Shown here: one piece after another, positions 13,463 to 53,918 of the stretch
Position numbering within the stretch: position 1 is the stretch's first letter
Layout: each line of letters opens with the position of its first letter
NCBI GenBank assembly: GCA_030613615.1
Contig: JAUWLR010000001.1
Location: forward strand, 1 to 58,296
Reading direction: 5' to 3'
Length of the DNA: 58,296 bases
From: Candidatus Eiseniibacteriota bacterium
GTDB lineage: Bacteria > Joyebacterota > Joyebacteria > Joyebacterales > Joyebacteraceae
Program-made: the position numbers and the translations under genes
The notes under the pieces: generated by a model
Told to the model about the DNA's origin: nothing
Seen by the model: the letters and a program-made list of their open reading frames with translations, nothing else
Databases searched by the model: none

Positions 13463-13615
13463 CGGATGTCAGTACACGCGATTGCCCGTAACGCCAGCCT
13501 TCAAATCGATCGGAGGTGGCGGCTGCGAGCGGAATGGCATGTCGCCCCAACTTTCTCTTCCTGCTGGGTGGGTCACGATGTACCCATGCGTTGCCTCCTG
13601 CCGCGGAGTACCCTA

Positions 13616-13644
13616 TTGACACCGATTCTCGACTCAGCCAGAAT
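13616..13644 (+). promoter_or_regulatory. Possible internal promoter ahead of the export gene
   Basis: TTGACA - 17 nt - CAGAAT inside a 339-nt spacer. The -10 is weak. Confidence 0.3.
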
Positions 13645-13801
13645 CTACTCTGTGCATGCTGATGTATTCCCTTTGCTTCCTCGCTCACGGGGTGCCCGCC
13701 TGCATCCTGGCAGTGCCGCTACCGCCGCACGGCCCATGTGTAGGTGGTGGCGGCGGCCTGACGTGTCGGCGCCGGTACTGGGAGCGGTGAAGGAGTTCAA
13801 G

Positions 13802-41300: not shown

Positions 41301-43746
41301 CGCAGTCACGCTCTCGAACTACCAGACCTACGTTCTCAGGGCAGAAGGTCTGGCGCCTGCCCTCTCCGAAGGTGAAGCAGATCCCTCGCCGGCGCAGCCC
41401 GGGGACCTCGTCACATACACGGTCCAGGTCACGGACACGGGCGGGGGCGTCGGCGACGTGTTCCTCAACCTCTCGGACATTGGTGGTGACAGGTTCGTCC
41501 GGATGACGGACGACGGGGTCGATCCGGATGCAGCCGAGGGCGATGGCGTGTACACGACCTCAGAGGTGCTTTCCTCCTCCGCATCCGACGGCGATCACAC
41601 GGTCACGGTCACCGCTCGCGACGGGGAGAACATCGCTGCCGCCACGCTGGACATCGACATCAACGCGAACAACCCCGCGACCGCGATCCGCCAGTTCGAC
41701 GACCCGGAGTTCGACGACCACGGGCCGAACGGGGGAACTGATCATCCCGGCGAACAGATCGAGGGACTCTACTACAGGTACCCGACGAATCTCGTGTTCC
41801 TTCCGGGGTCTTTCGACATTACCGGGGTGGAGATATTCGCGGACGGCGACCGCATCGTCTTCCGCACGCACATTCGCGACCTGGTCTATCATCAGGACCC
41901 GTCGGCCGCGGACTGGGGTGCGCCCCAGCCGAGCCAACAGACGTGCGACAACCCCAATCGGACCGACCTCAACCTGCAGAAGCTCGACATCTATATAGAT
42001 GCGTATGAAGGAGAGGGCGCGACCAGCGGTTTCCCGAACAGGTACGTCGATATCGCGACAGTCGACGCCTGGGACTACGGTATCTCTGCCGAGGGCTGGG
42101 GCAAGTGGTTCGTCGTCTCGAACAGCTCAAACTCCACGGCGAGCTGGGACCTCTACAAGAACGACAGCGACATCTCAATGTGTGACGACCACATCGAGAA
42201 CTACATCGACGTCAGCATCGACCGCGCGCTGCTCGGGCTTGACCCGGACAACACGGACAACGACGACATCCTGTCCTGGGACATCATCGTCTGCCTGTCG
42301 TCGCACGATGGCGAGACGAACGACCAGAATCTCGGAGGGATCCGCTGGGTCAACGGCACCACCAGCGAGTGGCAGATCGGCGGCGGTCTGGACAGCGAAG
42401 GGGGGAGGGACAGGGACCCCAACATCATTGACGTAGCGATCTCGCCCGGTGAAGGACACGAGCCCGGGCGGACCCAGGAGGAGATGCTCGACTACACCAC
42501 CACGGAGGCGGAGGCTAGGTTCGACAACAACCGGGTGGCGTGCGTGCTCGAAGCTAGCTTCGCCGTCGACACCGCACCGCCAGTCATCTACGACTTCACG
42601 AGCGACCCCGAACTCGCGTTCATCCCGTGGGTGGCGCTGGACGGCGCTCCAGCCGTCATGTGGACGACCATCACCGACGTTACCGGCATCGAGACCGCGC
42701 GCTTTCACTGGCAGCCCGTTGGACTTCCGACCTTCCGGGATTCGGTGGACATGGTCAACCTGATCGGCGACATCTGGGCGGCCGACATCCCGCGCGCCGA
42801 CGTCACGGCCGGCACGAACGTCGTCGGCCTGAACAAGGTGGGCGACGCGCGTGTGCTCGAGGGTTGGATCTACGCTGCCGACTCGTCGGAGGCCGAGAAC
42901 GAGATACAGAGCGCTCCCCTGACATTCGGCATCCCCGAGCCATGGGCGGGCTCGCAGACGCTCTCTCTACCCGACACACTGCATGAGAACGACGAACGTC
43001 TCCTCGTCTTCCAGGACGGAACCGTGCTGACGGTGGACGGCGGTGACCTGCCGGGCGAAGGCGGCGCCATGGAGCTCACCGTCACTCCCATATCTGAGAG
43101 TCTGGTGGACGTCTCCGATATCCGTGACGACATGGAGTTCGTCAGCGTCGCCAGAGACCTGGCGGCGCAGTACGCGGACGGGACGGCCGTGTCGCTCGTC
43201 GGGAAGCCGAGTCTGACACTGCACTACCCGCAGTACGAGGTAGGAGGGCTCGACGAGGAGGACTTCGGCCTGTTCGGGTGGATCCCGGAGACGGAGCGGT
43301 GGATTCTCAAGGGAGGCGCCGGCAATCCTCCCGGCAACACCGTGACCGGGGAAATACTCGACTTCGGCACCTACGGCATCTTCTACTGGGAGGCGCTGGA
43401 CGTGGGTTCCGCGAGAGGGCTGTCGGGCGTGCTGACCGAGCCGAATCCATTCTCGCCCAACGGTGACGGGCTATACGACGAGACCGTTGTCACGTTCTAC
43501 CTCGGCCGCGAGGCCGACTACGTCAACATCGAGTTCTACGACCTCGAGGGCCGGCTGGCCCGCAGGCTCGTGTTCAAGGGACCGACCGACTACATGGGGC
43601 GATCCCAGCATACCATGACCTGGGATGGAACGGACGTGGACGGCAACGTCGTGCCATACGGCATATATGTGATGCGTGTTGAGGCAAGGTTCAAGACCGA
43701 ACCGACGTTCGAGCGAGTCAACAGACCCGTCGTTGTCATCAAGTAG
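38389..43746 (+). CDS. Giant (1785 aa) secreted multidomain surface protein with glycan-binding-type modules and a FlgD-Ig/CHU_C-type C-terminal sorting domain
   Basis: Signal peptide 'AVAVLLLLVAASALS'. Two CBM9/DOMON-like modules ('TIDGRV...DLWVTWDETNLYFGV'; 'LTVLRITNSADELIVGLIF'). CarboxypepD_reg-like units ('YEIERLAPGIYDVKT'). Big-like units ('ISGQLVDASSN','LSAQVVDAWGNN'). Glucodextranase-C-like module 'DDPEFDDHGPNGG...YYRYPTNLVFLPGSFDITGVEIFADGDRIVF'. Tail 'NPFSPNGDGLYDE...WDGTDVDGNVVPYGIYVMRV'. I recognise no catalytic domain. Confidence 0.85.
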   Translation: MRRYAAAVAVLLLLVAASALSNSYNRPTIDGRVTTLEGDWESDEWVGRDPRDDCRHYPDQGDLRDLWVTWDETNLYFGVRTVNGPADNGYVLYIDEDAQEGITGATDFTSAAFYPRRVTFSTMGVDAIFGVWKLEPGTEGIRHCDDLSVMSPIEGAYAQMNPGIKHYEGVIPWDGLYGLGEGVVPEGTILRFVAAVVGVDNTGAFDALPTTTSGMESDPSTPDGAYTDLDLFIEIPVDTDEDGVPDTNYPPGGSISGTVALGDTTDHETVVTVTAYQGGEAIWSDRTPAGGGEYEIERLAPGIYDVKTNAFSYLPVTIEGVAVADTSETAGINFLLEKVTGRVEGEVVLDGGPAVDVTVGVYDATTGEMGGEGEVVVEGGTGAFSIGTVLDGTWLVLAEGKGYVEADTMATITDGDTTNVGLLTLPVVVATKYGFSDSLGNSIYGAGTTVSLPDSGIYYYARAWVEPRDDGDRVAYWDYDAQGGIVLSATKLDPAYDPTGTVVLADTSEVPLPDATLTSDMFDDGRAPFLTADDAIEVVRVFATNAALRDTLQGVLEVGIAPPAPVRLALSTDVSTIAAGVGVATISGQLVDASSNAAKVPGIIANMTAWGAGGGFSVPSPETDADGKFAVDFSGTVTGTAYVSAAIDPGSAYPNLEVDELTIVLEPDVAAFVEIEPDPRALRAGDLSTLSAQVVDAWGNNVALGDLSIALVASPPLLLASIDSPIVTDGTGWATGEIEAGSTYGTVEISGAATGVEVETIYVPIDATVRAMDEVAPETDPDHNSDPGMDLTVLRITNSADELIVGLIFDSEWNGAHLGICIEANGDAAGAPAEPFRFPITYGHALLPDYAFTYKFYDQSYADFRRWNVGAGAWQFLDWDTDSWVNEDAWVIGVEAQDGQMDRDQWDVYFRIPFSTIGVSVGDTVRVQGYTMQEVPGDPDAVKYTALDSTPHDATHDMLPDVGDWWETATDAVTLSNYQTYVLRAEGLAPALSEGEADPSPAQPGDLVTYTVQVTDTGGGVGDVFLNLSDIGGDRFVRMTDDGVDPDAAEGDGVYTTSEVLSSSASDGDHTVTVTARDGENIAAATLDIDINANNPATAIRQFDDPEFDDHGPNGGTDHPGEQIEGLYYRYPTNLVFLPGSFDITGVEIFADGDRIVFRTHIRDLVYHQDPSAADWGAPQPSQQTCDNPNRTDLNLQKLDIYIDAYEGEGATSGFPNRYVDIATVDAWDYGISAEGWGKWFVVSNSSNSTASWDLYKNDSDISMCDDHIENYIDVSIDRALLGLDPDNTDNDDILSWDIIVCLSSHDGETNDQNLGGIRWVNGTTSEWQIGGGLDSEGGRDRDPNIIDVAISPGEGHEPGRTQEEMLDYTTTEAEARFDNNRVACVLEASFAVDTAPPVIYDFTSDPELAFIPWVALDGAPAVMWTTITDVTGIETARFHWQPVGLPTFRDSVDMVNLIGDIWAADIPRADVTAGTNVVGLNKVGDARVLEGWIYAADSSEAENEIQSAPLTFGIPEPWAGSQTLSLPDTLHENDERLLVFQDGTVLTVDGGDLPGEGGAMELTVTPISESLVDVSDIRDDMEFVSVARDLAAQYADGTAVSLVGKPSLTLHYPQYEVGGLDEEDFGLFGWIPETERWILKGGAGNPPGNTVTGEILDFGTYGIFYWEALDVGSARGLSGVLTEPNPFSPNGDGLYDETVVTFYLGREADYVNIEFYDLEGRLARRLVFKGPTDYMGRSQHTMTWDGTDVDGNVVPYGIYVMRVEARFKTEPTFERVNRPVVVIK

Positions 43747-43759
43747 CAAGGACCTGTCT

Positions 43760-44641
43760 ATGTTGAGAACCACGGCAAGCACGGTCGTCGCACTCCTTCT
43801 TCTTGCCGGGGCGGTTCAGGCGAACTTCCTCGAGACGGAGCTTGGGGCGAGAGCGATGGGTATGGGCGGCGCCTTCGTGGCCGTCGCGGACGACGTCACT
43901 GCGCTGCACTGGAATCCGGCGGGGCTGGCAGGACTGCCTGGAGTTCAGGTCTTCGGAATGCGGACCAGCGTCTACAGCGTCGACGGTCTGTCGGAGGACG
44001 CGGTTCTGACGTCGTATGGAACGGGAAGCATGGGGTACGGCCTGGGGTGGATGAGAACGGGGGCGGCGGACCTCTACAGCGAGGACACGCTCCTGGCGGG
44101 CTACGGTACGGAAACGCCGATCGACGGCCTGGCCGCGGGCATTACGCTCAAACGTTTCTCCGTCGAGGCGCCTGGATACGAGTACTACAACGACCCGGCG
44201 TTCGCCGCGGGCGGCGACGACGCCTACGCCGCCGACCTGGGCGCACTCTATCGACGTGGGAAGTGGAGCGTCGGCGCCACGGTCAGGAATCTGGGAGAGC
44301 CCAAGCTGCAGCTGCTTTCCACGACCGCGGAGGAGGACCTCGACCCGATAATGAGCGAGCTGCGCCTCGGCGGGACATACCTGTTCCGCGACGTCATGCT
44401 GATGACGGTCGAGTGGCGCGCGCCGAGGGAGGCCCCCGAGTACTACGAGAACCAGTACAGCATCAATTTGGGGAGCGAGGTCTGGTTCTACGATGCCTTC
44501 GCATTGAGAGCGGGCATGAACCGCGACAGGATCACCGCGGGGCTGGGCATAAGGACGAAGCACATTCAGATAGACGTCGCCCTGCTGTCGGAGCGGAGGA
44601 TCGGGAGTCTCTACAGGTTGTCGGCGATCTTCCTGTGGTAG
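43760..44641 (+). CDS. PorV/PorP-SprF-like outer-membrane beta-barrel
   Basis: Signal peptide. 'GARAMGMGGAFVAVADDVTALHWNPAGLAG' is the hallmark N-terminal motif of PorV/PorQ/UPF0164-type barrels. Alternating beta pattern. C-terminal 'LSAIFLW'. Confidence 0.7.
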   Translation: MLRTTASTVVALLLLAGAVQANFLETELGARAMGMGGAFVAVADDVTALHWNPAGLAGLPGVQVFGMRTSVYSVDGLSEDAVLTSYGTGSMGYGLGWMRTGAADLYSEDTLLAGYGTETPIDGLAAGITLKRFSVEAPGYEYYNDPAFAAGGDDAYAADLGALYRRGKWSVGATVRNLGEPKLQLLSTTAEEDLDPIMSELRLGGTYLFRDVMLMTVEWRAPREAPEYYENQYSINLGSEVWFYDAFALRAGMNRDRITAGLGIRTKHIQIDVALLSERRIGSLYRLSAIFLW

Positions 44642-44714: not shown

Positions 44715-46310
44715 TTGGTTCGAACCAAGAGAATAAGAGGTCGCCACCTCTCGGTCCTCCTGCTCGCGAGTCTGATGCTCGCGTCGTGGGTCGCTCCCGC
44801 CTCAGGCATAACGACCCTGGACGGCTACTCCTCGTTCATGGCCGAGCTTCGGAACAGCGGTGGAGGAGACCCCAGCTGGGAGCTCGGCAATCCTGAGCTC
44901 CTGGTTGAGTTTCGTCTCAAGTCGAGCCCGTGGCAGGACATCGACAGCTTCCTGAAGGTCGCGGGGGAGTCGGACACGTGGGTGGATCGGGGCGAGGATG
45001 AGGTGGTCAAAGAGACGAAGTTCTTCTTCCAGGAGGCACACGTCCGGTTCCGCGCGAGCAAGTTCGAGACGCACCTCTTTGCGGGGCAGGACAGGTTCTG
45101 GCTGAACGAGCCGCTGCTGCAGATCGTGCACTCGGACCAGGTGAAGCACGACGACTGGGGCCCGAAGGCGCAGGGAATCAGGCTCGACTTCTGGGACCTC
45201 TACGGATTCTCGGGCGCGGCCTTCGTGAGCGAGAGGAGCGACTACAAGTTCATGGACTGGGCGAGGCTCTCCTCGGCCGAGCAGGGGTACTATCCGGGTT
45301 CGGCGGAGGGCGACACGATCACGAGCAGCACCTCCGACTATCGCGGCTTCAGGGTCAACAGGGCGCTGCTGTCCGATCAGTTGCACGTCGGGACGACCTA
45401 CGCGCGGAAGGACTACGAGGATCTCAACTCGCCCTACTGGGGCGATCGCAGCTTCTTCGACGAGACCATCGCCTTCGACATCGAGATGGCCTTGGGCGAT
45501 ATCGTGCCCGCGCTGACGCGCTTAGGACGTGTCACGTGGGTCTCCGAGTACGGCCGGACACTGTCGGGGCATCTGTGGACCGCTGAGGACCCGGGCGTCA
45601 ACGGTTTCAAGACGGAGGTCAGGGATGTCCGCGTGGGGCCCTTGAGCTTCATGGGTTCCTGGGAGGCGTACGGGAAGGACTTCTACAATCAGGGTCTGGC
45701 GCACGGCGACCAGCAGAACCTCAACGACTACACGCAGTACTACGCCGAGGGGCACTACCGCATTCCCGCCAAGGCCGTCAACCTCAAGGGCTGGGTCAAG
45801 CGCGCCGAGCCCCGGAGTTCCGTGTCGACCAGCTACGCCCGGTCGACGGGCATCATCGCCGAGTGGGGGAGCGAGGCCTACATCGAGTTTCTCAACGGAT
45901 TCACTGGCAAGACGGAGTACAAGGTCTACCGGAACAAGAGCGGCATCTGGCCGAACCTCTTCTTTGAGCTGACCGGTGAGAACCGACTGGTCAAGCTTCG
46001 CACGCAGTTCCGCATCAAGGACATCGACTCTGACTACGAGGTGACCGCGTACGGCTTCGAGGCCAACGTCAACCTGAGCGACGTCTGGAAGTTCTACGCG
46101 CGAGTGATGAATATCGATGAGGCCACCGAGTCCAGGCAGACCGCTTTCGCGCAGCTCAGGTACCTGGGGTGGCAAAGCGCCGAGTTCTTCGTCGAGTTTG
46201 GCAACCCGGACCACAGCAACGACCTGGTGAACGACGACGACTTCGCAACGCACGGCTCGAACGCGATCACGGAGCCGGTGTTCAAGGCGTTCGTGAGGAT
46301 CTACTACTAA
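44715..46310 (+). CDS. Predicted outer-membrane beta-barrel of an unrecognised family
   Basis: TTG start 6 nt after GAAGGAG. Signal peptide 'LLLASLMLASWVAPASG'. Amphipathic beta-strand periodicity throughout. Terminal 'FKAFVRIYY' (aromatic beta-signal). Paralogous blocks shared with 46395-48476. Confidence 0.6.
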   Translation: MVRTKRIRGRHLSVLLLASLMLASWVAPASGITTLDGYSSFMAELRNSGGGDPSWELGNPELLVEFRLKSSPWQDIDSFLKVAGESDTWVDRGEDEVVKETKFFFQEAHVRFRASKFETHLFAGQDRFWLNEPLLQIVHSDQVKHDDWGPKAQGIRLDFWDLYGFSGAAFVSERSDYKFMDWARLSSAEQGYYPGSAEGDTITSSTSDYRGFRVNRALLSDQLHVGTTYARKDYEDLNSPYWGDRSFFDETIAFDIEMALGDIVPALTRLGRVTWVSEYGRTLSGHLWTAEDPGVNGFKTEVRDVRVGPLSFMGSWEAYGKDFYNQGLAHGDQQNLNDYTQYYAEGHYRIPAKAVNLKGWVKRAEPRSSVSTSYARSTGIIAEWGSEAYIEFLNGFTGKTEYKVYRNKSGIWPNLFFELTGENRLVKLRTQFRIKDIDSDYEVTAYGFEANVNLSDVWKFYARVMNIDEATESRQTAFAQLRYLGWQSAEFFVEFGNPDHSNDLVNDDDFATHGSNAITEPVFKAFVRIYY

Positions 46311-46394
46311 CGGAAGAAAGCTGGGGCCGGTCGACCCGGTCCACGAGAATCGCTTGAGGGAGGCGTGATAGGCGCCCCATCCGGAGAAGAATCG

Positions 46395-48476
46395 ATGAAG
46401 CACAGAGGCATCGCACGTGTGGCACTCTTGGTAGCCGTTGCTCTTCTCGCAGCCGCGCCCGCGCGGGCCGGTGTGTCCAGGGTGGACGGTGGCATAGAGT
46501 TCACCTTCGACCACCCGAGCGCGGGCAGCGTGAGCCTGGCCGGCGACTTCAACGGCTGGGACATGAACGCCGAACCGCTCACTCAGGATGAAGACGGGGT
46601 CTGGAGGGTGGTTGTTGACCTGGGGCCGGGCGAGTACGCGTACAAGTTCGTCGTCAACGGCTCCGAGTGGATAGCCGACCCCGAGAATCCGAGGGTGGTC
46701 GGCGACTTCGGGAACTCAGGGATCACGATCAACGACGACGGCGATCCGGTGTCAGGAGAGGACGCGGACCCCATCTCGAATACGTCCGTGAACTCCAGGG
46801 TGCAGCTGAACGGCTGGTATCGGGCGACGTTCGACTGGCAGGCGGACATGCCGAGCGATTCCCGGTGGCGGCTCACCAGGCCGGCGCACGAGTTCTACAT
46901 CGCCGTCAATCCGACCGTGACGTCCGTTGCTTCCGGAAACGCCACGGTGCGCCTTTCGACGGGCGCCGGCGATATCAAGGAGATATCGGCCGACATCTAC
47001 AGCGGCCACCTCACGCTGGAGGGCGGCCCGTTTTCCGTGACGGGGTTCTACAACGAGGAACGGCTGCAGTACGATAACCCCCTCGAAACCGTGGGGCACA
47101 TCGACCTCGACAACACTATCCCCGAGGAGCACATCCCGTTCGGCAGGGGTGCGCAGGGCATCATGGTCGACACGGAGTTCTGGGACTTCACGCTGAACGC
47201 CGCATACGCAAACATCTACGACTACTACATTATGAACGACCCGAGCGTATACGACAACACGGAGACCGATCTCCTGGCCGCGCGTCTCAAACGGCCCGTC
47301 GGTCCAGTGACGCTCGGAGCGACGTACACGAGCTGGAGAGACAGCTGGTGGATAGGCTTCGAGGGCACGAACACGAGCCCCCACATCGACCAGTACCTCG
47401 CTGACAATCCCGAGTCTCAGAGCAGCTGGTTCGAGCTCTCCAACACCGAGACCTGGATCGGCTTCGACGCCGACATGCCCGTCGTGAGTGACCTGCTCTA
47501 CGCAAAGGCCGAGTACTCACTCTACAGCTACGACAGCCTCTTCGACGTGGGCAACAAGGAGAGGATCGAGGGCGAGGACTACTCAAACGGCGCGATCAAT
47601 GTCCCCGTCGGCAGCATGGATGGCTGGGTCGCGACGGGCGTCCTGGAAAGCTCACCGCTCCCGTACCTGGACCTGAGATTCCAGGTCACGAAGACCGCGA
47701 TCGACTCCATGAGCTCGGGTGAGCAGTACGTGGCCTACGGCTTCCCTTCCTGGCTGGCCATATGGGAAGGCGTGTTCACCGAGGTCAAGGGCACCGGTTC
47801 GCCGCTCTCGGTGAACGTCTTCGGTCAGGCGCCGGAGCGGGACGAACTCGAACTCAAGTTCGACGCCGACTTCGGGTTCGGCATCTTCGACGTGGGATTC
47901 GAGTACGACCGCGCCGACTTCGAGTGGCGCTACCACGAGGAGATCGAAGGCCACTTCGGTTCATTCGACACCTGGAAGGAACGCATCTCGAGGCTTTCGG
48001 TGACCGGCGGAGCAGACGTAGCCGAGAGAATTCGCGTCGGTTTCGCCACCGAGCGGATCTCGGGCTACTACGACGTCGACTACCTCGAGGATCCGAGCAG
48101 ATTTGAAGCCATAGTGACCGCGGACGTCGGGCTCTGGCAGGACTGGAGCGTGCTGCTCGACGTCAGGAGCGCCTCGTATAAGAACATCCCACGCTTCGCA
48201 CAGTCGACTCCCGACTCGCTCCACTACGAGGACGAGGCTTTCCTGGCTCCGTACGTCGCCCTGGTCTACAGCCCGCGGGAGAACATCGAGGTCAGAGTGG
48301 GCTACGGTGTCAGCCCGACCAACTACGTGGACACGCCGGTCGAGGGCAGAGGGGACGGTCGCGGGCGGTGGGTCTCCGAGTACCTGTGGAACCGCAGCGA
48401 CCACGACGGCCTGGATGCCGAGAAGGCGCTGGCGGACGCTAAGACGATCGGTGTCATGGCGGTCATAACGTTCTAG
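46395..48476 (+). CDS. CBM48 (AMPK-beta/glycogen-binding) module fused to a predicted outer-membrane beta-barrel
   Basis: Signal peptide 'VALLVAVALLAAAPARA'. CBM48 'IEFTFDHPSAGSVSLAGDFNGWDMNAEPLTQDEDGVWRVVVDLGPGEYAYKFVVNGSEWIADPENP'. About 560 aa of beta-strand-rich sequence ending 'IGVMAVITF'. Confidence 0.7.
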   Translation: MKHRGIARVALLVAVALLAAAPARAGVSRVDGGIEFTFDHPSAGSVSLAGDFNGWDMNAEPLTQDEDGVWRVVVDLGPGEYAYKFVVNGSEWIADPENPRVVGDFGNSGITINDDGDPVSGEDADPISNTSVNSRVQLNGWYRATFDWQADMPSDSRWRLTRPAHEFYIAVNPTVTSVASGNATVRLSTGAGDIKEISADIYSGHLTLEGGPFSVTGFYNEERLQYDNPLETVGHIDLDNTIPEEHIPFGRGAQGIMVDTEFWDFTLNAAYANIYDYYIMNDPSVYDNTETDLLAARLKRPVGPVTLGATYTSWRDSWWIGFEGTNTSPHIDQYLADNPESQSSWFELSNTETWIGFDADMPVVSDLLYAKAEYSLYSYDSLFDVGNKERIEGEDYSNGAINVPVGSMDGWVATGVLESSPLPYLDLRFQVTKTAIDSMSSGEQYVAYGFPSWLAIWEGVFTEVKGTGSPLSVNVFGQAPERDELELKFDADFGFGIFDVGFEYDRADFEWRYHEEIEGHFGSFDTWKERISRLSVTGGADVAERIRVGFATERISGYYDVDYLEDPSRFEAIVTADVGLWQDWSVLLDVRSASYKNIPRFAQSTPDSLHYEDEAFLAPYVALVYSPRENIEVRVGYGVSPTNYVDTPVEGRGDGRGRWVSEYLWNRSDHDGLDAEKALADAKTIGVMAVITF

Positions 48477-48478
48477 CG

Positions 48479-49294
48479 ATGGAGGTTCGGAGGATCGTGA
48501 GAGAAACCACCAACAGACGGAGCCGCCGCGGGACGCTTCTGGTCGTGACGCTGGCGGTAGCACTGACGCTCAGCTCGTGCGCGGGCACACTGGACTGGAT
48601 ACAGGACCGGCTGCCACCACCGTCGGAAGTGGAAGGCGGGATCATGTTCCGCTACCACGCGCCGTCGGCGCGCCTGGTGACGTTGGCGGGCAACTTCAAC
48701 AACTGGGGCGGCACGCAGGGCGGCGGACGATACGACCCGAGCATCAATCCGATGAGCGACACCAACGGCGACGGCACGTGGACCCTCGTTGTTCCCCTTC
48801 CACCCGGTCGCTATCAGTACAAGTTCGTGATCGACGGTGGCGTGGGGTGGGAGCAGGACCCCAACAACCCCGACAAGGCGATGGAAGGCGGGATCGAGAA
48901 CTCGCTCGTCGTGGTTCCCCCGACGGTCTCGTACGATTTCGAGCACATCACGGGCACGGTCATTGGTGAGAGCATCAGAGAGGGACTGCTGAAGCGCCCG
49001 GGCGACGCGCCCACTGCAGCCGAGCCGACCGTGACCGCGGAAGGCGTGGAGTTCGAGGTCGATTTCCCGGATGCCGGCGCGGTCTATCTCGCGGGAACGT
49101 TCAACGACTGGGATCCGGACGCACACCCGCTAACGAAGGGTGACGATAGCCTGTGGCGGGTGACCATTGAGCTCGACCCGGGAGAGTATTTCTACAAGTT
49201 CGTCGTCGACGGCACATGGATGGAAGATCCGGGCAACCCGGAGAGCGTCGACGACGGCTACGGCGGCGTCAATTCAATCCTGACCGTTGAGTGA
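48479..49294 (+). CDS. Lipoprotein with two CBM48 glycogen-binding modules
   Basis: Lipobox 'LTLSSCAG'. 'MFRYHAPSARLVTLAGNFNNWGG...WTLVVPLPPGRYQYKFVIDG...WEQDPNNP' and 'VEFEVDFPDAGAVYLAGTFNDWDPDAHPL...WRVTIELDPGEYFYKFVVDGTWMEDPGNP'. Confidence 0.8.
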   Translation: MEVRRIVRETTNRRSRRGTLLVVTLAVALTLSSCAGTLDWIQDRLPPPSEVEGGIMFRYHAPSARLVTLAGNFNNWGGTQGGGRYDPSINPMSDTNGDGTWTLVVPLPPGRYQYKFVIDGGVGWEQDPNNPDKAMEGGIENSLVVVPPTVSYDFEHITGTVIGESIREGLLKRPGDAPTAAEPTVTAEGVEFEVDFPDAGAVYLAGTFNDWDPDAHPLTKGDDSLWRVTIELDPGEYFYKFVVDGTWMEDPGNPESVDDGYGGVNSILTVE

Positions 49295-49431: not shown

Positions 49432-50430
49432 ATGCCACGCCACGATGGTCGGACGCGCAGGCACGAACGTCCTGGATCGGACGGGCCCGGTGTGAACCCG
49501 GGACCCAGGCCGCGTCTCTCCAGGCGAACGGGCGACTCGGCCACCTCCTACGCGTTTCTCGCGCCGTTCCTCATCACCTTCGCCGTCTTTCTGGCTTTCC
49601 CGGTCTTCTACTCGCTCTATCTGGCGCTGCACCAGGTGCCCGCTGACTCCTTCGACATATTCGGGGGGCTCGAGTTCGTCGCCTTCAGGAACTTCGCGAA
49701 GCTCTTCGCCGACACCAAGTTCTGGTGGTCGGTGCTCATGACTCTCTACTATGCGGCACTCATCATCCCAGCAGGGATAGTGGCGTCGCTCGTGCTCGCG
49801 CTCCTTCTCAACAACAGGCTCAGGTTGGTCGCGGCCTACCGGAGCGCGTTCTTCATGCCCTACGTGCTGGACATGCTGGTCGTGGGCATCGTCTGGACGC
49901 TGATATACAGCCCGCACGTGGGGATTCTCACGCGCATCTTCGAAGCAATAGGCATCACGACGTTCTCGGAGCGCGGGTTTCTGGGGATGCCCGCCTCCGC
50001 GATGCCGTCGGTCGTGTTCGCGAACGTGCTCAAGGGCGCGGGGTTCGGAATGATCCTGTACCTCTCGGCGATCCAGAACATCCCGCAGTCGCTGTACGAG
50101 GCCGCCGAGATCGACGGGGCCACGCCGTGGAAGCGCTTCACCTCGATAACGCTCCCGCTGGTGAAGCCCATCACACTCTTCATGGTCATCATAGGGACCA
50201 TCGGCGCCCTGAACGCGTTCGCCGAGGTCTACGCAATGACGGGCGGCGGGCCGAACATCGACGTCGGCGGCCGCGCGCTCGGGGCGACGTGGGTGACGGG
50301 GTACTACGTTTTCGACACGTTCTACACGCAGTTCAAGCTCGGATACGCCGCTGCGATGTCGTACGTGCTTCTGGCGCTCACGCTCATCATTTCGCTCGTC
50401 AACAGGCGCTTCCTCAGGGCGGAGGTGTAG
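49432..50430 (+). CDS. ABC carbohydrate transporter permease (CUT1, MalF/UgpA-like)
   Basis: Six hydrophobic segments. EAA loop 'EAAEIDGATPWKRFTSITLPLVKP'. GTG 49492 is an alternative start. Confidence 0.85.
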   Translation: MPRHDGRTRRHERPGSDGPGVNPGPRPRLSRRTGDSATSYAFLAPFLITFAVFLAFPVFYSLYLALHQVPADSFDIFGGLEFVAFRNFAKLFADTKFWWSVLMTLYYAALIIPAGIVASLVLALLLNNRLRLVAAYRSAFFMPYVLDMLVVGIVWTLIYSPHVGILTRIFEAIGITTFSERGFLGMPASAMPSVVFANVLKGAGFGMILYLSAIQNIPQSLYEAAEIDGATPWKRFTSITLPLVKPITLFMVIIGTIGALNAFAEVYAMTGGGPNIDVGGRALGATWVTGYYVFDTFYTQFKLGYAAAMSYVLLALTLIISLVNRRFLRAEV

Positions 50431-50432
50431 AG

Positions 50433-51260
50433 GTGGCACGCACGCGCGCGGCGGTTCTCAGGAGGACGCTTCTCTACACCGGCCTGACGGTCGCGGCGAT
50501 CGTAGTGCTGTTCCCGTTCTTCTGGATGGTCGTGACGGCGTTCAAGGAACCGGGTCAGGCCTTCAGCCAGGAGATTCTTCCCTCCAGTCCGACGCTCGAG
50601 AACTTCAGGCGCGTCCTCACCGACTACGGGTTCGCGCGCTACTTCGTGAACAGCGTCGTCGTGGCGACCTCGGCCGCGCTTTTCGCGACGTTCTTTGCCA
50701 CGATGGCGGGCTACGTCTTCGCGAAGAAGGAGTTCATCGGGCGTGACAAGGTGTTCGGGTTTCTGCTCGCGTCGCTCATGATCCCCGGGATGATGTACGT
50801 GGTGCCGCAGTTCGCGATTATCAACTGGCTCGGGTGGATGAACAGCTACAAGGCGATGATCATCCCGCACCTCGCGAACGTCTTCGGCCTCTTCCTGATG
50901 AGACAGTACATGATGACCATCCCCTCGGAGCTTCTGGAGGCGGCCAAGATCGACGGTGCGGGGGAGTGGCAGGTCTTCAGGACCATCATGGTGCCGCTGT
51001 CCATCCCGATCATCGCGACGCTCTTCCTGCTGACGTTCCAGTTCCACTGGAACAACTTCCTCTGGCAGCTCATAGTGACGAACGTCGAGCGCCTCTACAC
51101 CGTTCCGGTGGGGCTCGCGATGTTCAAGAGCGCGCACGAGGAGTTGTACACATTGAAGATGGCAGGTTCGTGTATCTCTGTGCTGCCGATCGCCGCTCTC
51201 TTCTTCTTTGCTCAGAGGTACTTCATTGAGGGGATGACGATGGGGGCGCTCAAGGGTTAG
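50433..51260 (+). CDS. ABC carbohydrate transporter permease (CUT1, MalG/UgpE-like)
   Basis: GTG start 2 nt after the upstream stop. 'LFPFFWMVVTAFK' and EAA loop 'EAAKIDGAGEWQVFRTIMVPLSIP'. Confidence 0.85.
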   Translation: MARTRAAVLRRTLLYTGLTVAAIVVLFPFFWMVVTAFKEPGQAFSQEILPSSPTLENFRRVLTDYGFARYFVNSVVVATSAALFATFFATMAGYVFAKKEFIGRDKVFGFLLASLMIPGMMYVVPQFAIINWLGWMNSYKAMIIPHLANVFGLFLMRQYMMTIPSELLEAAKIDGAGEWQVFRTIMVPLSIPIIATLFLLTFQFHWNNFLWQLIVTNVERLYTVPVGLAMFKSAHEELYTLKMAGSCISVLPIAALFFFAQRYFIEGMTMGALKG

Positions 51261-51311
51261 GCAGCGGAGCGCGGCCGGACGAGCGGGAGCTCGAAGCGAA
51301 AGGGAACAGAC

Positions 51312-52550
51312 ATGAGAAGAACGCTGTCTATAGGAGGGGCGCTTCTGGTAGCGTGCGCGTTTGCGCTCTTGGCCGGCTGCGGAGGAGGGCAGGACGCCGC
51401 CGCGACACTTACGATCTGGCAGACTTACAATGACGAAGAGTATCCGGTCTTCAAGGAGATCGTCGAGAGCTTCAGAGCGGCGCATCCGGACATCACGATC
51501 GACGTGGTCAGGCTCCCCTTCGCCGGCGCCGAGCCCAAGATCCAGACGGCTCTCACAACGCGCACCGAGCCCGACATCGCAAGGGTGGACGTCTCGTTCC
51601 TGGCGAAGCTCGCGGGCAAGAACGCGCTTCTCGACCTCGGTCCGTACATCCCTTCTGAGTTCCGCGACGAGATCCTCCCCGTGGCGCTCTCGAGCTGCTA
51701 CTACGACGACACGCTGTGGGGGCTGCCGGACCAGACCAACGGTCTCTGCCTCTTCTATAATAGAGAGCACTTCCGCAGTGCCGGGTTGGACCCCGAGCGT
51801 CCCCCGGTGACGTGGGACGAGCTGATATCGTACGGGAGGAAGCTGACGAACAGGGACGAGGGTGTCTTCGGCATCGGCCTCTCCAACTCGCTCTGGTGGA
51901 CGCTCCCGTTCTTCTACACGCACGGCGCCGATTTTCTCTCCGAGGATGGCACGCGCTGCGTGCTGAACAGTCCCGAGGGTATCGCCGCATTCCAGCTCAA
52001 GGTGGACCTGTACCAGAAACACGGCATCGAGGGTGGCGCGTGGCGCGCGGGCGGCATCATCCATGACCTGGGTTTCCAGAACGGACGATACTCGATGATC
52101 CTGAACGGGCCCTGGGCCGTAGAGAGCCTCAAGCGCACGGGCATCGATTTCGGGGTCGGTCTGATTCCCGCGGGACCGGTCGGTACGGCGACCAACGTTG
52201 GCGGGAACAATCTGGTCGTGTTCAGAAGCACGAAGCGGCCCGAGCTCGCCTCCGAGTTTCTGCGGTTCGTGGCCAGCGAGGAGACGCAGCGCATGTGGGC
52301 GTCGAGGCTCGGCCAGATCCCGGTGAACGTCAAGGCCTCGGACGCCATCACGTCCGAGGAGCATCCGTACCTCGCCGTCTTCGTCGAGCAGATGGAGACA
52401 GCGATCCCGCGCCCGCAGGTGATGGGCTACCCCGAGATCGAGAACCTGATGAATCCGGAGATGCAGGCCGCTCTGGACGGCACAAAGTCAGTTGAGGCGG
52501 CGCTCAACTCCGCCGTCGCGGAGATAGACAAACTGCTCGCGAGCGATTAG
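51312..52550 (+). CDS. ABC transporter extracellular solute-binding lipoprotein (family 1, sugar)
   Basis: Lipobox 'ALLAGCGGG'. 'LTIWQTYNDEE','GLPDQTNGLCLFYN','NGPWA' are typical of MalE-like sugar-binding proteins. Confidence 0.85.
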   Translation: MRRTLSIGGALLVACAFALLAGCGGGQDAAATLTIWQTYNDEEYPVFKEIVESFRAAHPDITIDVVRLPFAGAEPKIQTALTTRTEPDIARVDVSFLAKLAGKNALLDLGPYIPSEFRDEILPVALSSCYYDDTLWGLPDQTNGLCLFYNREHFRSAGLDPERPPVTWDELISYGRKLTNRDEGVFGIGLSNSLWWTLPFFYTHGADFLSEDGTRCVLNSPEGIAAFQLKVDLYQKHGIEGGAWRAGGIIHDLGFQNGRYSMILNGPWAVESLKRTGIDFGVGLIPAGPVGTATNVGGNNLVVFRSTKRPELASEFLRFVASEETQRMWASRLGQIPVNVKASDAITSEEHPYLAVFVEQMETAIPRPQVMGYPEIENLMNPEMQAALDGTKSVEAALNSAVAEIDKLLASD

Positions 52551-52602: not shown

Positions 52603-52659
52603 CAGACGCACACGGGTGGACAGGCGCACACGGGTGGACAGACGCACACGGGTGGACAG
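52603..52659. repeat. 18-bp tandem repeat, about 3.2 copies (cagRcgcacacgggtgga)
   Basis: Copies at 52603, 52621 and 52639, with one A/G difference. They lie in the spacer between the binding-protein gene and the next gene. The track ORF start at 52616 ('MDRRTRVDRRTRVDR') is just this repeat translated. Confidence 0.85.
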
Positions 52660-52714
52660 AACTGAGACGAAACTTAGGGAACGCTCAGGCGTTGCTGCAT
52701 CCAAGGGGGCAGAT

Positions 52715-53491
52715 GTGAAGCTGTTGCGCGGGGCTGTTGTGCTCCTTGCGTTTCTTGCCGTCGCGATTCCGGCGGTGGCCGAGGAACTGGCGAGATGGGA
52801 CGACCCGGTCGGAGACGACACCGGTGACGGGGACTACACGTATCCTCTGAACGAGGCGTTTGGAGAGGGTGGACAGGCGGACCTTCTGTCGTTCGCGATC
52901 GAGAAGGAGAACGGTTCGCTGATCTTCGAGCTCACGATACGCAACCTCGTCGACCCGTGGAACGTCGGCAACCGGCTGACCATGGTCGCGGTCGCCATCG
53001 ACACGGAGGAGGGCGGCGACGAAGAGCTTCGGCGCAACGCGAACGCGCGTCTGGCCGAGCCGTCCGAATATCAGATCTTCGTGGCCGGAGAGACCGTGGA
53101 GGTCATAGACATGTACGCCGAGCGTGTTGACATCGGCGCGAGTGTCGAGACGGACATGGAGAAGGGCACCATCAGAATAAGTGTTCCGATCGACGCCCTC
53201 GACGGCGCGGCGGCCGACTGGCGATTCACGGTGGCGGTCGGGCTTCAGGACGACTACGGCGCCGGGGGGTTAGGTGACTTCCGCGAAGTCAAGAAGGTCG
53301 AGGAGGAGTGGCGGGGCGGCGGCGGTGACGACCTGTCGCTCGATACGAATGTGTACGACATCATTGTGCCCGAGCCGAAGAAGATCCTCTTCATCTTCGG
53401 CGGGGGGCAGAGGTCGCAGGAAGAGATTCTGGGCGACTGCAGCCTGGAGACCGGTGAGCTGGTAGTACTCCCGGCTCTGGCACTGGAATAG
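52715..53491 (+). CDS. Secreted protein consisting of a glucodextranase C-terminal-like (Glucodextran_C) module
   Basis: GTG after AAGGGGG. Signal peptide 'AVVLLAFLAVAIPAVA'. 'WDDPVGDDTGDGDYTYPLNEAFGEGGQADLLSFAIEKENGSLIFELTIRNLVDPWN' parallels the module in the giant protein. Confidence 0.65.
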   Translation: MKLLRGAVVLLAFLAVAIPAVAEELARWDDPVGDDTGDGDYTYPLNEAFGEGGQADLLSFAIEKENGSLIFELTIRNLVDPWNVGNRLTMVAVAIDTEEGGDEELRRNANARLAEPSEYQIFVAGETVEVIDMYAERVDIGASVETDMEKGTIRISVPIDALDGAAADWRFTVAVGLQDDYGAGGLGDFREVKKVEEEWRGGGGDDLSLDTNVYDIIVPEPKKILFIFGGGQRSQEEILGDCSLETGELVVLPALALE

Positions 53492-53524
53492 AGCGGACAG
53501 AAGACTCGCAGGGCTTCTCATCGG

Positions 53525-53551
53525 TCGCCCGGCGGCTGCATGGCCGGGCGA
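53525..53551 (+). terminator. Hairpin downstream of 52715-53491
   Basis: tcgcccggc / gccgggcga forms a 9-bp stem with a 9-nt loop. No U-tract. Confidence 0.35.
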
Positions 53552-53918
53552 GCGGTGCATCTGGGGGAGCACCGGTGGCCCGCGGCGTGGCGAGCATCGT
53601 CAACGTGCTTGACGCCCTAGAGCGGCTAACGAGCCGAAAGGCTCGCCTCACGGGCGACGGTGGGCATGGCAGCGAAGTTGCAGTTGCACAGGAGACGCCG
53701 CGATCAGAGACCCGAAAGAGACATCAGGCTCGCAGAGGCTGCCGCTGAAGGGATACCGCCGGGGACTGCAGATAGTCGTCGGCGCCCGCGAGACTCGCGA
53801 GTACATCCTCACCAACAAAGAGAAGGCGTACTTCGCCGGTGAGACGGGCACGACGAACACGAGGAGCTACGAGGGCCTCATCGTCGAGCTTCACAAGTAC
53901 CTGGAGGGTTGGGACCTC

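What the first reader, a model, noticed from the sequence alone, without database searches (positions are those of the whole stretch)
46395..48476. CBM48 glycogen-binding module fused to the N-terminus of a predicted outer-membrane beta-barrel
After a signal peptide comes a textbook AMPK-beta-type CBM48 ('VSLAGDFNGWD...WRVVVDLGPGEYAYKFVVNGSEWIADPENP'). About 560 aa of amphipathic beta-strand sequence follows, ending in an OMP-type aromatic terminus ('MAVITF'). CBM48 is normally attached to GH13 enzymes or to soluble or lipoprotein scaffolds. I know of no characterised example fused to a membrane barrel. If the CBM is surface-exposed, this is a self-contained glycan-grabbing channel. If it is periplasmic, it may tether periplasmic glycogen-like polymers.
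Basis: partly seen in the sequence, partly recalled or inferred. Interest (0 to 1): 0.7.

Follow-up and report, generated by a model that had tools for sequence, protein, structure and literature searches.

The report
Starch-binding module fused to membrane barrel
This gene encodes an outer-membrane barrel protein carrying a starch/glycogen-binding module, and it belongs to a conserved five-gene outer-membrane gene set that uncultured bacteria (Eisenbacteria and relatives) appear to use to take up starch-like sugars; nobody has characterised it.

Summary
ORF 46395-48476 (+, 693 aa) has three parts:
- a Sec signal peptide;
- a CBM48 that scores above Pfam's threshold, with the AMPK-beta sugar-binding residues invariant across the family;
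- a confidently modelled, roughly 22-stranded beta-barrel ending in an invariant Phe.

The barrel matches no Pfam, NCBIfam or PDB sequence. By fold it resembles only generic large barrels (TonB-dependent transporters, AlgE, LamB), and it has no plug domain or TonB box.

A barrel-only profile finds just 138 clusters among 1.84 billion representatives. Of 69 distant full-length members, 63 carry one to three CBM48 and 2 carry CBM20, so the fusion is old and close to obligatory.

The gene is always fourth in a five-gene module:
1. a surface protein with a T9SS-like C-terminal domain;
2. a PorV/PorP-like barrel;
3. a paralogous barrel without a CBM;
4. this protein;
5. a CBM48 lipoprotein.

The module lies in alpha-glucan utilisation loci, next to an ABC importer and GH13, GH57 or GDE genes.

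The best reading is an alpha-glucan passage through the outer membrane. Loop and turn lengths place the barrel's N-terminus, and so most simply the CBM48, on the periplasmic side. Surface exposure is not excluded. This is a new variant of a known kind.

The parts
46395..48476 (+). Whole gene: CBM48-barrel outer-membrane protein, 693 aa plus stop codon
   Evidence: ORF; RBS GGAG upstream of the ATG; about 93 full-length homologues
46395..46469 (+). Sec signal peptide, aa 1-25, with cleavage site ARA|G
   Evidence: Read from the sequence; modelled as a low-confidence helix aa 3-19
46473..46730 (+). CBM48 (AMPK-beta type) beta-sandwich, aa 27-112
   Evidence: Pfam scores above gathering threshold; PDB alignment to AMPK beta CBM; W55, K84, W92 and N107 invariant
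46731..46796 (+). Linker of constrained length, aa 113-134, containing the invariant S128-N129-T130 motif
   Evidence: pLDDT below 50 at aa 123-132; 19 residues between the GNS and SNT motifs in 37 of 42 homologues, and 17 in 20 of 69 distant members, with 59 of 69 between 17 and 24
46797..48473 (+). Beta-barrel of about 22 strands, aa 135-693, with long conserved loops L1-L4, L6 and L11 and a C-terminal beta-signal ...GVMAVITF
   Evidence: AF2 secondary structure; Foldseek hits; strand hydrophobicity and loop conservation; F693 invariant
38389..43746 (+). Module gene 1: giant secreted protein. It has a conserved N-terminal domain of about 230 aa, Ig-like repeats, Glucodextran_C and a T9SS-like C-terminal domain
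   Evidence: Pfam; C-terminal domain resembles those of PorU and PorZ; N-terminal domain and C-terminal domain conserved in orthologues of 360-2005 aa
43760..44641 (+). Module gene 2: PorV/PorQ/PorP-like small outer-membrane barrel
   Evidence: NF033709 scores 83.7 bits against a cut-off of 90; weak PorP_SprF match; orthologues present in every locus examined
44715..46310 (+). Module gene 3: paralogous large barrel without a CBM, 531 aa, ending in ...RIYY
   Evidence: AF2 pLDDT 84.7; Foldseek matches usher and TBDT barrels; hhalign to the target family gives 96% probability, E 1.5e-9
48479..49294 (+). Module gene 5: lipoprotein with two CBM48 modules, starting 2 nt after the target's stop codon
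   Evidence: Pfam; lipobox LSSC and a conserved motif after the Cys
49432..52550 (+). ABC sugar importer: two permeases and a MalE-like lipoprotein solute-binding protein
   Evidence: Pfam and NCBIfam; N-terminus ...LLAGC
52616..56057 (+). Secreted Glucodextran_C protein and a GDE_C amylo-alpha-1,6-glucosidase with no evident signal peptide
   Evidence: Pfam and NCBIfam; N-termini

Best explanation
**What it is.** The gene encodes an outer-membrane protein made of a sugar-binding CBM48 joined by a linker of fixed length to a plug-less beta-barrel of about 22 strands.

**Where it sits.** It is the fourth gene of a conserved five-gene outer-membrane module inside an alpha-glucan (starch, glycogen, maltodextrin) utilisation locus:
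1. a surface protein with a T9SS-type C-terminal domain;
2. a PorV/PorP-like anchor barrel;
3. a paralogous barrel without a CBM;
4. this CBM-barrel;
5. a CBM48 lipoprotein.

**How it most likely works.**
- Enzymes and binding proteins displayed on the surface through T9SS hold and cut alpha-glucan outside the cell.
- The chains cross the outer membrane through this barrel, possibly together with its paralogue. Long conserved loops narrow the barrel lumen.
- The CBM48 is held at the periplasmic mouth, where strand 1 begins. It catches the emerging chain, which biases diffusion inwards and hinders back-sliding.
- The CBM48 passes the chain to the CBM48 lipoprotein, and then to the MalE-like binding protein and ABC permeases.

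**Shown.** Domain make-up, barrel fold class, topology pattern, conservation of the binding residues, near-obligatory CBM fusion, conserved gene order.

**Inferred.** Channel activity, the substrate, periplasmic placement of the CBM, and the capture and hand-over role.
For: **The CBM48 is real and under selection.**
- It scores above Pfam's thresholds.
- Its sugar-binding Trp, Lys and Trp align with AMPK beta and are invariant in the family.
- Across the wider superfamily the nearly invariant columns include six in the CBM and only a handful spread over the far longer barrel.

**The barrel.**
- The AF2 model has pLDDT 84.6 and 22 strands.
- Foldseek returns only outer-membrane barrels.
- Every strand has a hydrophobic face, and the terminal Phe is invariant.

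**Topology.**
- All ten even-numbered connections are turns of 2-3 residues.
- Most odd-numbered connections are long loops of up to 46 aa. L6 and L8 are short but sit at the tips of long hairpins.
- This places the start of strand 1 at the periplasmic face.

**The fusion is functional.** With a barrel-only profile, 63 of 69 distant members carry CBM48 (one to three copies) and 2 carry CBM20, a different starch-binding fold.

**Context.**
- The same five genes occur in the same order in 30 GTDB loci and in 6 distant loci.
- They lie next to sugar ABC importers, GH13, GH57, GDE, GH77, phosphorylase and MalK.

**Surface sorting.**
- Soluble surface domains in this organism use T9SS C-terminal domains. 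The subtilase at 8504-10222 passes TIGR04183, and the C-terminal domain of gene 1 resembles those of PorU and PorZ.
- The CBM-barrel and the lipoprotein have no such domain.

**Precedent.** The sucrose porin ScrY has a periplasmic N-terminal domain proposed to act as an 'extended sugar slide' (Dumas 2000, cited in PMC6173795).
Against: - There is no direct evidence of conductance or of sugar specificity.
- I could not inspect model coordinates or PAE, so the state of the lumen and the position of the CBM relative to the barrel are unknown.
- Tandem arrays of one to three starch-binding CBMs are typical of extracellular capture of polymers.
- The linker is tightly constrained in length. That fits a docked or threaded domain better than a free tether.
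- The loops assigned to the outside (L1-L4, L6, L11) are more conserved than the strands, which is unusual. It shows that something specific happens there which I have not explained.
- The only hydrolase in this window's locus, GDE, has no evident signal peptide. A need to bring long chains into the periplasm is therefore not demonstrated here.
- The role of the paralogous barrel is unknown.
Confidence: 0.5

Rival explanations
1. The CBM is exposed on the surface. The 20-odd-residue linker runs back through the barrel lumen, as in type Va autotransporters. The CBM48 would then sit outside and hold starch at the mouth of its own channel, or simply act as a self-anchored starch adhesin.
For: - An N-terminal passenger followed by a C-terminal barrel is the autotransporter arrangement (established knowledge).
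- The 22 residues from aa 113 to 134 span about 70 Å when extended, enough to cross a barrel.
- The linker length is tightly constrained and it carries an invariant SNT motif.
- Tandem copies of one to three CBM48 or CBM20 resemble the surface starch binders SusE and SusF.
- The loops predicted to face outward are highly conserved and could dock the CBM.
Against: - No outer-membrane protein with 22 strands is known to export its own N-terminal domain.
- No helix or other ordered segment is predicted in the linker.
- Surface proteins in this organism and in related loci use T9SS C-terminal domains, and this protein has none.
- The conserved loops are shared with the paralogue that has no CBM, so they are a feature of the barrel family and not a CBM docking site.
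- Passing two or three folded CBMs through the barrel would be needed in some members.
Confidence: 0.25
2. The CBM48 is a ligand-sensing plug. It docks in or against the periplasmic opening of the 22-stranded barrel, in the place a TonB-dependent transporter's plug occupies, and binding of alpha-glucan opens the gate without TonB.
For: - 22 strands is the number found in TonB-dependent transporters.
- The top Foldseek hits are TonB-dependent transporters.
- Two homologues just reach the PF00593 threshold (27.5 bits against 27).
- The fixed linker length implies a fixed geometry.
- A barrel this wide must be closed off by something.
Against: - The paralogous barrel has no N-terminal domain at all, yet shares the long conserved loops that could fill the lumen.
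- Members with two or three CBMs cannot fit them all inside the barrel.
- The segment next to strand 1 has pLDDT below 50.
- There is no Plug domain or TonB box (and the sequence itself).
Confidence: 0.1
3. It is a scaffold and not a channel. The two large barrels and the PorV-like barrel form an outer-membrane platform that anchors the T9SS-delivered gene 1 protein and the starch-degrading enzymes. The CBM48 only helps keep the substrate or the complex in place. Sugars would cross the membrane elsewhere.
For: - The gene is tightly and universally linked to a cargo protein bearing a T9SS C-terminal domain and to a PorV/PorP-like gene.
- PorP-like barrels anchor type B cargo (PMC9143113).
- Glucodextran_C recurs on several proteins of the locus.
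Against: - Known T9SS anchors are small barrels related to the FadL fold (my own knowledge, not tested here), and none needs two additional barrels of 22-24 strands.
- No other candidate outer-membrane sugar channel is encoded in any of the loci examined, although each has an ABC importer.
Confidence: 0.1
4. It is an exporter, or a periplasmic tether, for a glycogen-like polymer that the cell makes itself.
For: - AlgE, an 18-stranded polysaccharide exporter, is among the Foldseek hits.
- CBM48 binds glycogen (established knowledge).
Against: - The conserved neighbours are solute-binding-protein-dependent importers and alpha-glucan hydrolases or debranching enzymes.
- No glycosyltransferase or synthase belongs to the module.
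Confidence: 0.03

Closest known systems
Bacteroidota starch utilisation system (SusC TonB-dependent transporter, SusD, SusE/F surface glycan-binding lipoproteins, SusG)
   Same: - An outer-membrane apparatus encoded in an alpha-glucan utilisation locus.
- A large barrel of about 22 strands.
- Accessory lipoprotein(s) built from starch-binding modules.
- Surface-located amylases.
- Found in the FCB group of bacteria.
   Different: - No Plug domain, no TonB box and no SusD-like gene.
- The CBM is fused to the barrel itself.
- A second paralogous barrel and a pair of T9SS-type cargo and PorV-like anchor belong to the module.
- Import across the inner membrane uses an ABC system, whereas Sus-type loci use an MFS-type transporter (own knowledge).
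- The only sequence similarity to SusC-type barrels is a threshold-level PF00593 hit in two homologues.
Sugar porins LamB (maltoporin) and ScrY (PF02264)
   Same: - The proposed job is the same: TonB-independent passage of maltooligosaccharides towards a MalE-type binding protein.
- ScrY carries a periplasmic N-terminal extension proposed to extend the sugar slide (Dumas 2000, cited in PMC6173795).
   Different: - 18-stranded trimeric porins, against about 22 strands here.
- No PF02264 match.
- TM-scores are at most 0.48.
- ScrY's extension is a coiled coil, not a CBM.
CymA cyclodextrin channel of Klebsiella oxytoca
   Same: An outer-membrane channel dedicated to alpha-glucan, with an N-terminal segment that affects passage (own knowledge).
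   Different: A 14-stranded monomer whose N-terminus is a short peptide, not a folded CBM. It was not detected in any search here.
Type Va autotransporters
   Same: The same order of parts: signal peptide, N-terminal soluble domain, linker, C-terminal barrel.
   Different: A 12-stranded barrel (PF03797) with a helical linker in the pore. There is no such match and no helix is predicted here.
T9SS cargo-anchor pairs (PorP-PG1035, SprF-SprB; PorQ-PorZ, PorV-PorU)
   Same: This applies to the neighbouring genes 1 and 2. A secreted protein whose C-terminal domain resembles those of PorU and PorZ is encoded directly upstream of a PorV/PorQ/PorP-family barrel (PMC9143113).
   Different: - It concerns the neighbours, not the target gene.
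- It is not known whether these phyla have the T9SS core machinery.
- The NCBIfam PorV_fam score is just below its cut-off (83.7 against 90).

Membership tests
CBM48 (Pfam PF02922 / PF16561) | Profile score above the curated gathering threshold | tested here: met
   PF16561 scores 41.3 bits against 26.8. PF02922 scores 41.2 bits against 22.4, over aa 32-107.
CBM48 (Pfam PF02922 / PF16561) | Conserved alpha-glucan-binding residues, equivalent to W100, K126, W133 and N150 of AMPK beta1 | tested here: met
   W55, K84 and W92 align to these positions. They and N107 are invariant in 42 homologues. The N107-to-N150 equivalence is inferred, because the printed alignment stops just before it.
CBM48 (Pfam PF02922 / PF16561) | Measured binding to glycogen, starch or maltooligosaccharides | not testable with these tools
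   This needs isothermal titration calorimetry, a pull-down or an affinity gel with the isolated module.
Outer-membrane beta-barrel protein (BAM substrate) | Sec signal peptide, closed antiparallel barrel with an even number of strands, and short periplasmic turns with long outer loops | tested here: met
   Signal peptide read from the sequence. 22 strands, ten even-numbered turns of 2-3 residues, and most odd-numbered loops long, up to 46 aa. All top Foldseek hits are outer-membrane barrels. This rests on a model, not on an experiment.
Outer-membrane beta-barrel protein (BAM substrate) | C-terminal beta-signal ending in an aromatic residue | tested here: met
   The protein ends ...GVMAVITF. 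F693 is invariant in 42 homologues and at least 90% conserved in 73 distant members.
TonB-dependent transporter / SusC | N-terminal Plug domain (PF07715) | tested here: not met
   No Plug hit even at E <= 0.1. The N-terminal domain is a CBM48.
TonB-dependent transporter / SusC | TonB box ahead of the plug | tested here: not met
   The mature N-terminus, GVSRVDGGIEFTF, runs straight into the first strand of the CBM48 (read from the sequence).
TonB-dependent transporter / SusC | 22-stranded barrel matching PF00593 | tested here: inconclusive
   About 22 strands are modelled. The target itself has no PF00593 hit. Two homologues score 27.5 and 25.3 bits against a threshold of 27. Foldseek TM-scores to TonB-dependent transporters are 0.28-0.41.
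Sugar porin LamB/ScrY (PF02264) | Profile match and an 18-stranded barrel | tested here: not met
   No PF02264 hit. About 22 strands. No PDB sequence hit to the barrel at E <= 10.
Type Va autotransporter (PF03797) | 12-stranded C-terminal barrel with a helical linker in the pore | tested here: not met
   No PF03797 hit. 22 strands, and no helix in aa 113-134.
New family proposed here: starch-CBM-fused large barrel of the five-gene module | Homologous barrel carrying one or more N-terminal starch-binding CBMs, encoded between a paralogous barrel without a CBM and a CBM48 lipoprotein | tested here: met
   Window gene order. The same order in 30 GTDB loci and 6 distant loci. 65 of 69 distant members carry CBM48 or CBM20.

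The most novel reading that the evidence does not exclude
The five-gene module is a previously unrecognised kind of outer-membrane polysaccharide-uptake machine in uncultured FCB-group phyla. It would be a counterpart of SusC/D that does not use TonB. In this reading, starch-binding modules fixed to a plug-less 22-stranded barrel, and to a partner lipoprotein with a conserved tether motif, either gate the pore in response to ligand or ratchet long alpha-glucan chains inwards. Binding energy would take the place of TonB-driven plug movement.
Probability: 0.3. Interest if true: 0.8.

Novelty: new variant of a known kind. Interest (0 to 1): 0.62.

Why it matters
Two ways of moving glycans across the outer membrane are well understood. 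One is the small specific porin, such as LamB, ScrY, CymA or chitoporin. The other is the TonB-powered SusC/D-type transporter.

This family offers a third design: a TBDT-sized barrel with no plug or TonB box and with starch-binding modules built in. It is always encoded with a sister barrel, a CBM48 lipoprotein and a surface protein anchored in the T9SS manner.

- If it is a channel, it shows how phyla without SusC/D (Eisenbacteria, Krumholzibacteria and relatives) feed on alpha-glucans in soils and sediments.
- It gives a concrete system for testing whether tethered binding modules can drive or gate polymer import.
- It defines two protein families that Pfam does not cover, and a gene-order signature that can be used to annotate such loci in metagenomes.

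Tried and rejected
- **Sequence homology of the barrel to solved structures.** A full-length profile searched at E <= 10 returned only CBM48 hits.
- **Pfam and NCBIfam for the barrel and its paralogue.** The target gave only a sub-threshold Porin_4 hit (E 0.004), and the 531-aa paralogue gave nothing. PF27098, listed for one paralogue homologue, is not in the local Pfam copy.
- **Foldseek.** There is no close structural relative. TM-scores are at most 0.49 for the target and at most 0.52 for the paralogue, to usher barrels.
- **Model coordinates and PAE.** These are not exposed to the script environment.
- **The conserved N-terminal domain of gene 1 (giant protein aa 59-322).** No Pfam or PDB match even at E <= 10. 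No catalytic domain was found in the giant protein.
- **Literature.** Searches on Eisenbacteria with starch, on CBM48 with outer-membrane barrels, on Krumholzibacteriota with polysaccharide, on CBM-porin fusions, and on Eisenbacteria with T9SS found nothing on this architecture.
- **Rejected: artefact or non-barrel protein.** The hydrophobic strand faces, the invariant terminal Phe and the confident model argue against it.
- **Rejected: exporter.** The surrounding genes are for import and breakdown.
- **Not attempted: residue co-variation between the CBM and the barrel.** There are too few independent sequences.
Full report

The ORF list gives 46365..48476 (+) starting at GTG. A GGAG lies 9-12 nt upstream, and full-length homologues are 693 aa and cover 100% of the query. 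All the quoted peptide strings are in the translation.

After a typical Sec signal peptide (…LLAAAPARA|GV), residues 32-107 score above Pfam's curated thresholds for both CBM48 models. AMPK1_CBM scores 41.3 bits against 26.8, and CBM_48 scores 41.2 bits against 22.4. The closest solved sequences are AMPK beta CBMs. W55, K84 and W92 align to the FNNW, YKF and GQW sugar-contact positions. These residues and N107 are invariant in an alignment of 42 homologues that reach down to 31% identity.

An AlphaFold2 model built on that alignment is confident (pLDDT 84.6, pTM 0.78). It shows a beta-sandwich at aa 27-112, a low-confidence segment at aa 123-132, and then 22 long antiparallel strands from aa 135 to 692. 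Every strand has one hydrophobic face. The last residue, Phe, is invariant. All of the 50 best Foldseek matches in the PDB are outer-membrane barrels.

**2. What kind of barrel is it?**

It belongs to no described family.
- Pfam gives only a sub-threshold Porin_4 hit, and NCBIfam gives only CBM-level hits to GlgB.
- A profile of the whole family finds no solved barrel sequence even at E <= 10.
- By fold it resembles large barrels in general: TonB-dependent transporters with 22 strands (TM normalised to the query up to 0.41), and AlgE and LamB (TM normalised to the target up to 0.49).
- There is no Plug domain, and there is no room for a TonB box. The mature N-terminus runs straight into the CBM's first strand.
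- Two homologues just touch the threshold of the TBDT barrel model PF00593 (27.5 bits against 27). I treat this as a hint of very remote kinship at most.

The connection lengths are informative. All ten even-numbered connections are turns of 2-3 residues. Most odd-numbered ones are long loops: L3 33 aa, L7 44 aa, and L11 46 aa with two helices. L6 and L8 are short but sit at the tips of very long hairpins. This is the standard outer-membrane-protein pattern. It puts both ends of the barrel, and so the point where the CBM is attached, at the periplasmic face.

Unusually, loops L1-L4, L6 and L11 are more conserved (0.70-0.80) than the strands (0.59), while L8-L10 are variable (0.20-0.28). The conserved loops probably fold into the lumen or line it. 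A barrel this wide must be closed off somehow.

**3. Relatives**

A word-indexed search found about 93 full-length homologues. Every one that carries an organism name is from Candidatus Eisenbacteria, and they are labelled only 'glycogen-binding domain-containing', 'isoamylase early set domain-containing' or 'hypothetical'.

A barrel-only profile (A3) was searched against 1.84 billion representative proteins. It found only 138 clusters at E <= 1e-3. Of 69 full-length distant members, 63 carry AMPK1_CBM/CBM48 and 2 carry CBM20. Copy number ranges from one to three, and one member (P0238) has two CBM20 modules in place of CBM48.

The barrel profile contains no CBM, so this shows that fusion of a starch-binding module to this barrel is old and nearly obligatory. 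The CBM type can be swapped while the ligand class stays the same. Named distant members come from Candidatus Krumholzibacteria. One lies on a closed 6.45-Mb metagenomic contig. I found no cultured or characterised representative.

**4. Context**

The gene upstream, 44715-46310 (531 aa), is itself a confidently modelled large barrel (pLDDT 84.7). Its best fold matches are usher and TBDT barrels. It has no Pfam match. Profile-profile comparison shows it is a distant paralogue of the target's barrel (96% probability, E 1.5e-9), and it has no CBM.

Upstream again lie a PorV/PorQ/PorP-family barrel (43760-44641; NF033709 83.7 bits against a cut-off of 90) and a giant secreted protein (38389-43746). 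The giant protein has Glucodextran_C, Ig-like repeats, and a C-terminal domain that resembles the T9SS C-terminal domains of PorU and PorZ.

Two nucleotides after the target's stop codon begins a lipoprotein with two CBM48 modules (48479-49294). After it come two ABC permeases, a MalE-like lipoprotein binding protein, a secreted Glucodextran_C protein and an amylo-alpha-1,6-glucosidase.

tblastn of these proteins against 30 loci from GTDB genomes shows the same order in every contig that extends far enough, down to 37% identity of the target. All these genomes are Eisenbacteria or unclassified MAGs.

In six much more distant loci, where the barrel is about 20-35% identical, the core five genes are still there in the same order (homology confirmed by blastp):
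1. a protein with the same N-terminal domain of about 230 aa and a T9SS-type C-terminal domain, 360-2005 aa long;
2. a PorV/PorP-like barrel;
3. the paralogous barrel;
4. the CBM-barrel;
5. a small CBM48 lipoprotein.

These loci also hold GH13 amylases carrying CBM48 (in two of them with T9SS-type C-terminal domains), GH57, GDE, GH77, phosphorylase and MalK. The lipoprotein has a lipobox in all seven cases examined. After the Cys come 3-6 variable residues and then a conserved motif, [IV][KRQ]x[RK][LIV][PSK]x P.

The target is therefore one part of a conserved outer-membrane module in alpha-glucan utilisation loci, not a stand-alone device.

**5. How it most likely works**

The genes around it are all about binding, cutting and importing alpha-glucan. 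No other candidate outer-membrane sugar passage is encoded in any of these loci, yet each has a periplasmic-binding-protein-dependent importer. The simplest role for a large barrel with conserved lumen-lining loops is the outer-membrane passage for alpha-glucan chains.

For the position of the CBM I weigh four points.
- The topology pattern places the start of strand 1 at the periplasmic face.
- N-terminal domains of large outer-membrane barrels are periplasmic as a rule. This is established knowledge for BamA, LptD, TBDT extensions and ushers.
- In this organism, soluble surface proteins carry T9SS C-terminal domains. The subtilase at 8504-10222 passes TIGR04183 with 33.6 bits against 23. The CBM-barrel and the lipoprotein have none.
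- There is a precedent in ScrY's periplasmic 'extended sugar slide' (Dumas 2000, cited in PMC6173795).

I therefore favour a CBM48 at the periplasmic mouth. It would catch the incoming chain, bias diffusion inwards, and hand the chain to the CBM48 lipoprotein and the MalE-like protein. I give this whole picture a probability of about 0.5.

Several points count against it.
- Tandem starch-binding arrays are typical of surface proteins.
- The linker is strikingly constant in length: 19 residues between the GNS and SNT motifs in 37 of 42 close homologues. In the 69 distant members the commonest length is 17 (20 members), and 59 fall between 17 and 24. This points to a fixed geometry, either docked or threaded, and not a loose tether.
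- I could not look at the model's coordinates.

The rivals are: surface exposure through a threaded linker (0.25); a ligand-sensing CBM plug (0.10); a non-channel scaffold for the T9SS-delivered proteins (0.10); and an exporter (0.03).

**6. Comparison with known systems**

In function it most resembles the Bacteroidota Sus apparatus and the LamB/ScrY/CymA sugar channels. It is not a member of any of these families.
- The features that define a TonB-dependent transporter (Plug, TonB box) were tested and not met.
- The sugar-porin profile and strand number were tested and not met.
- The autotransporter barrel was tested and not met.
- The CBM is a bona fide CBM48.
- The neighbouring genes 1 and 2 look like a T9SS cargo-anchor pair of the PorP-PG1035 or PorQ-PorZ kind (PMC9143113). 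I did not test whether these phyla have the T9SS core.

**7. Novelty and verdict**

I found no description of a carbohydrate-binding module fused to an outer-membrane barrel, and none of this module, in the searchable literature. No curated profile covers either barrel.

It is a new variant of a known kind of system: outer-membrane glycan acquisition encoded in a utilisation locus. It is restricted, as far as can be seen, to uncultured lineages.

Interest is 0.62. A specialist in glycan transport would find the plug-less, TBDT-sized barrel with built-in CBMs and its conserved partners surprising and worth testing. Function and orientation remain inferred.

Noticed in passing
window 44715-46310 (+): A 531-aa protein with no Pfam or NCBIfam match is a confidently modelled large outer-membrane barrel. 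Its best fold matches are FimD/PapC usher barrels. It is a distant paralogue of the target's barrel but has no CBM, and it is always encoded immediately upstream of the target.
   Followed up: yes
window 38389-43746 (+) and 43760-44641 (+): A giant secreted protein is followed after 13 nt by a PorV/PorQ/PorP-family barrel, which looks like a T9SS cargo-anchor pair. The giant protein has an unknown N-terminal domain of about 230 aa, Ig-like repeats, Glucodextran_C and a PorU/PorZ-like C-terminal domain. The N-terminal domain is conserved in orthologues of 360-2005 aa and matches nothing in Pfam or the PDB. No catalytic domain was found.
   Followed up: partly
window 48479-49294 (+); L001, L033-L037: The CBM48 lipoprotein downstream of the target has a lipobox in all seven loci checked. 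After the lipidated Cys come 3-6 variable residues and then a conserved basic, proline-rich motif, [IV][KRQ]x[RK][LIV][PSK]x P. This could be a docking or sorting signal. It is unlike the acidic surface-export signal of Bacteroidota lipoproteins.
   Followed up: partly
window 46731-46796 (aa 113-134 of the target): The segment between the CBM48 and strand 1 varies in sequence but is almost fixed in length across the family, and it ends in an invariant Ser-Asn-Thr. The reason is not explained.
   Followed up: partly
window 53492-53918, compared with L003, L008, L010, L012, L014, L016, L017, L019, L020: Many relatives have an extra gene of about 2.5-3 kb between the Glucodextran_C gene and the GDE gene. 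It gives CBM48 hits at both ends. A possibly equivalent gene in L001 and L033, in a different position in the locus, is GH57 plus Glucodextran_C. The extra gene is absent from this window and from L006 and L007, so this locus encodes no obvious secreted amylase.
   Followed up: partly
window 51312-52550 (+): The MalE-like solute-binding protein has a lipoprotein signal (…LLAGC). It is probably membrane-anchored, not free in the periplasm.
   Followed up: no
window 56054-58222 (+): A 722-aa protein with transmembrane segments at both ends and no family match closes the locus. It keeps that position in distant relatives at 27-87% identity. Its function is unknown.
   Followed up: no
window 8504-10222 (+): A subtilase (Peptidase_S8) has a C-terminal T9SS type A sorting domain (TIGR04183, 33.6 bits against a cut-off of 23). 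This shows that the organism uses T9SS-type sorting signals.
   Followed up: partly
window 10386-32968: An unrelated polysaccharide synthesis and export cluster. It includes a flippase-like protein, a Wza-like Poly_export/SLBB protein of 1039 aa (13466-16585), a heparinase II/III-like protein (25228-26970) and a WecA-like transferase (31652-32968).
   Followed up: no
L033 10001-12508 (protein P0238): One member of the barrel family carries two CBM20 modules in place of CBM48, within the same five-gene module. The starch-binding fold has been swapped while the architecture is kept.
   Followed up: yes
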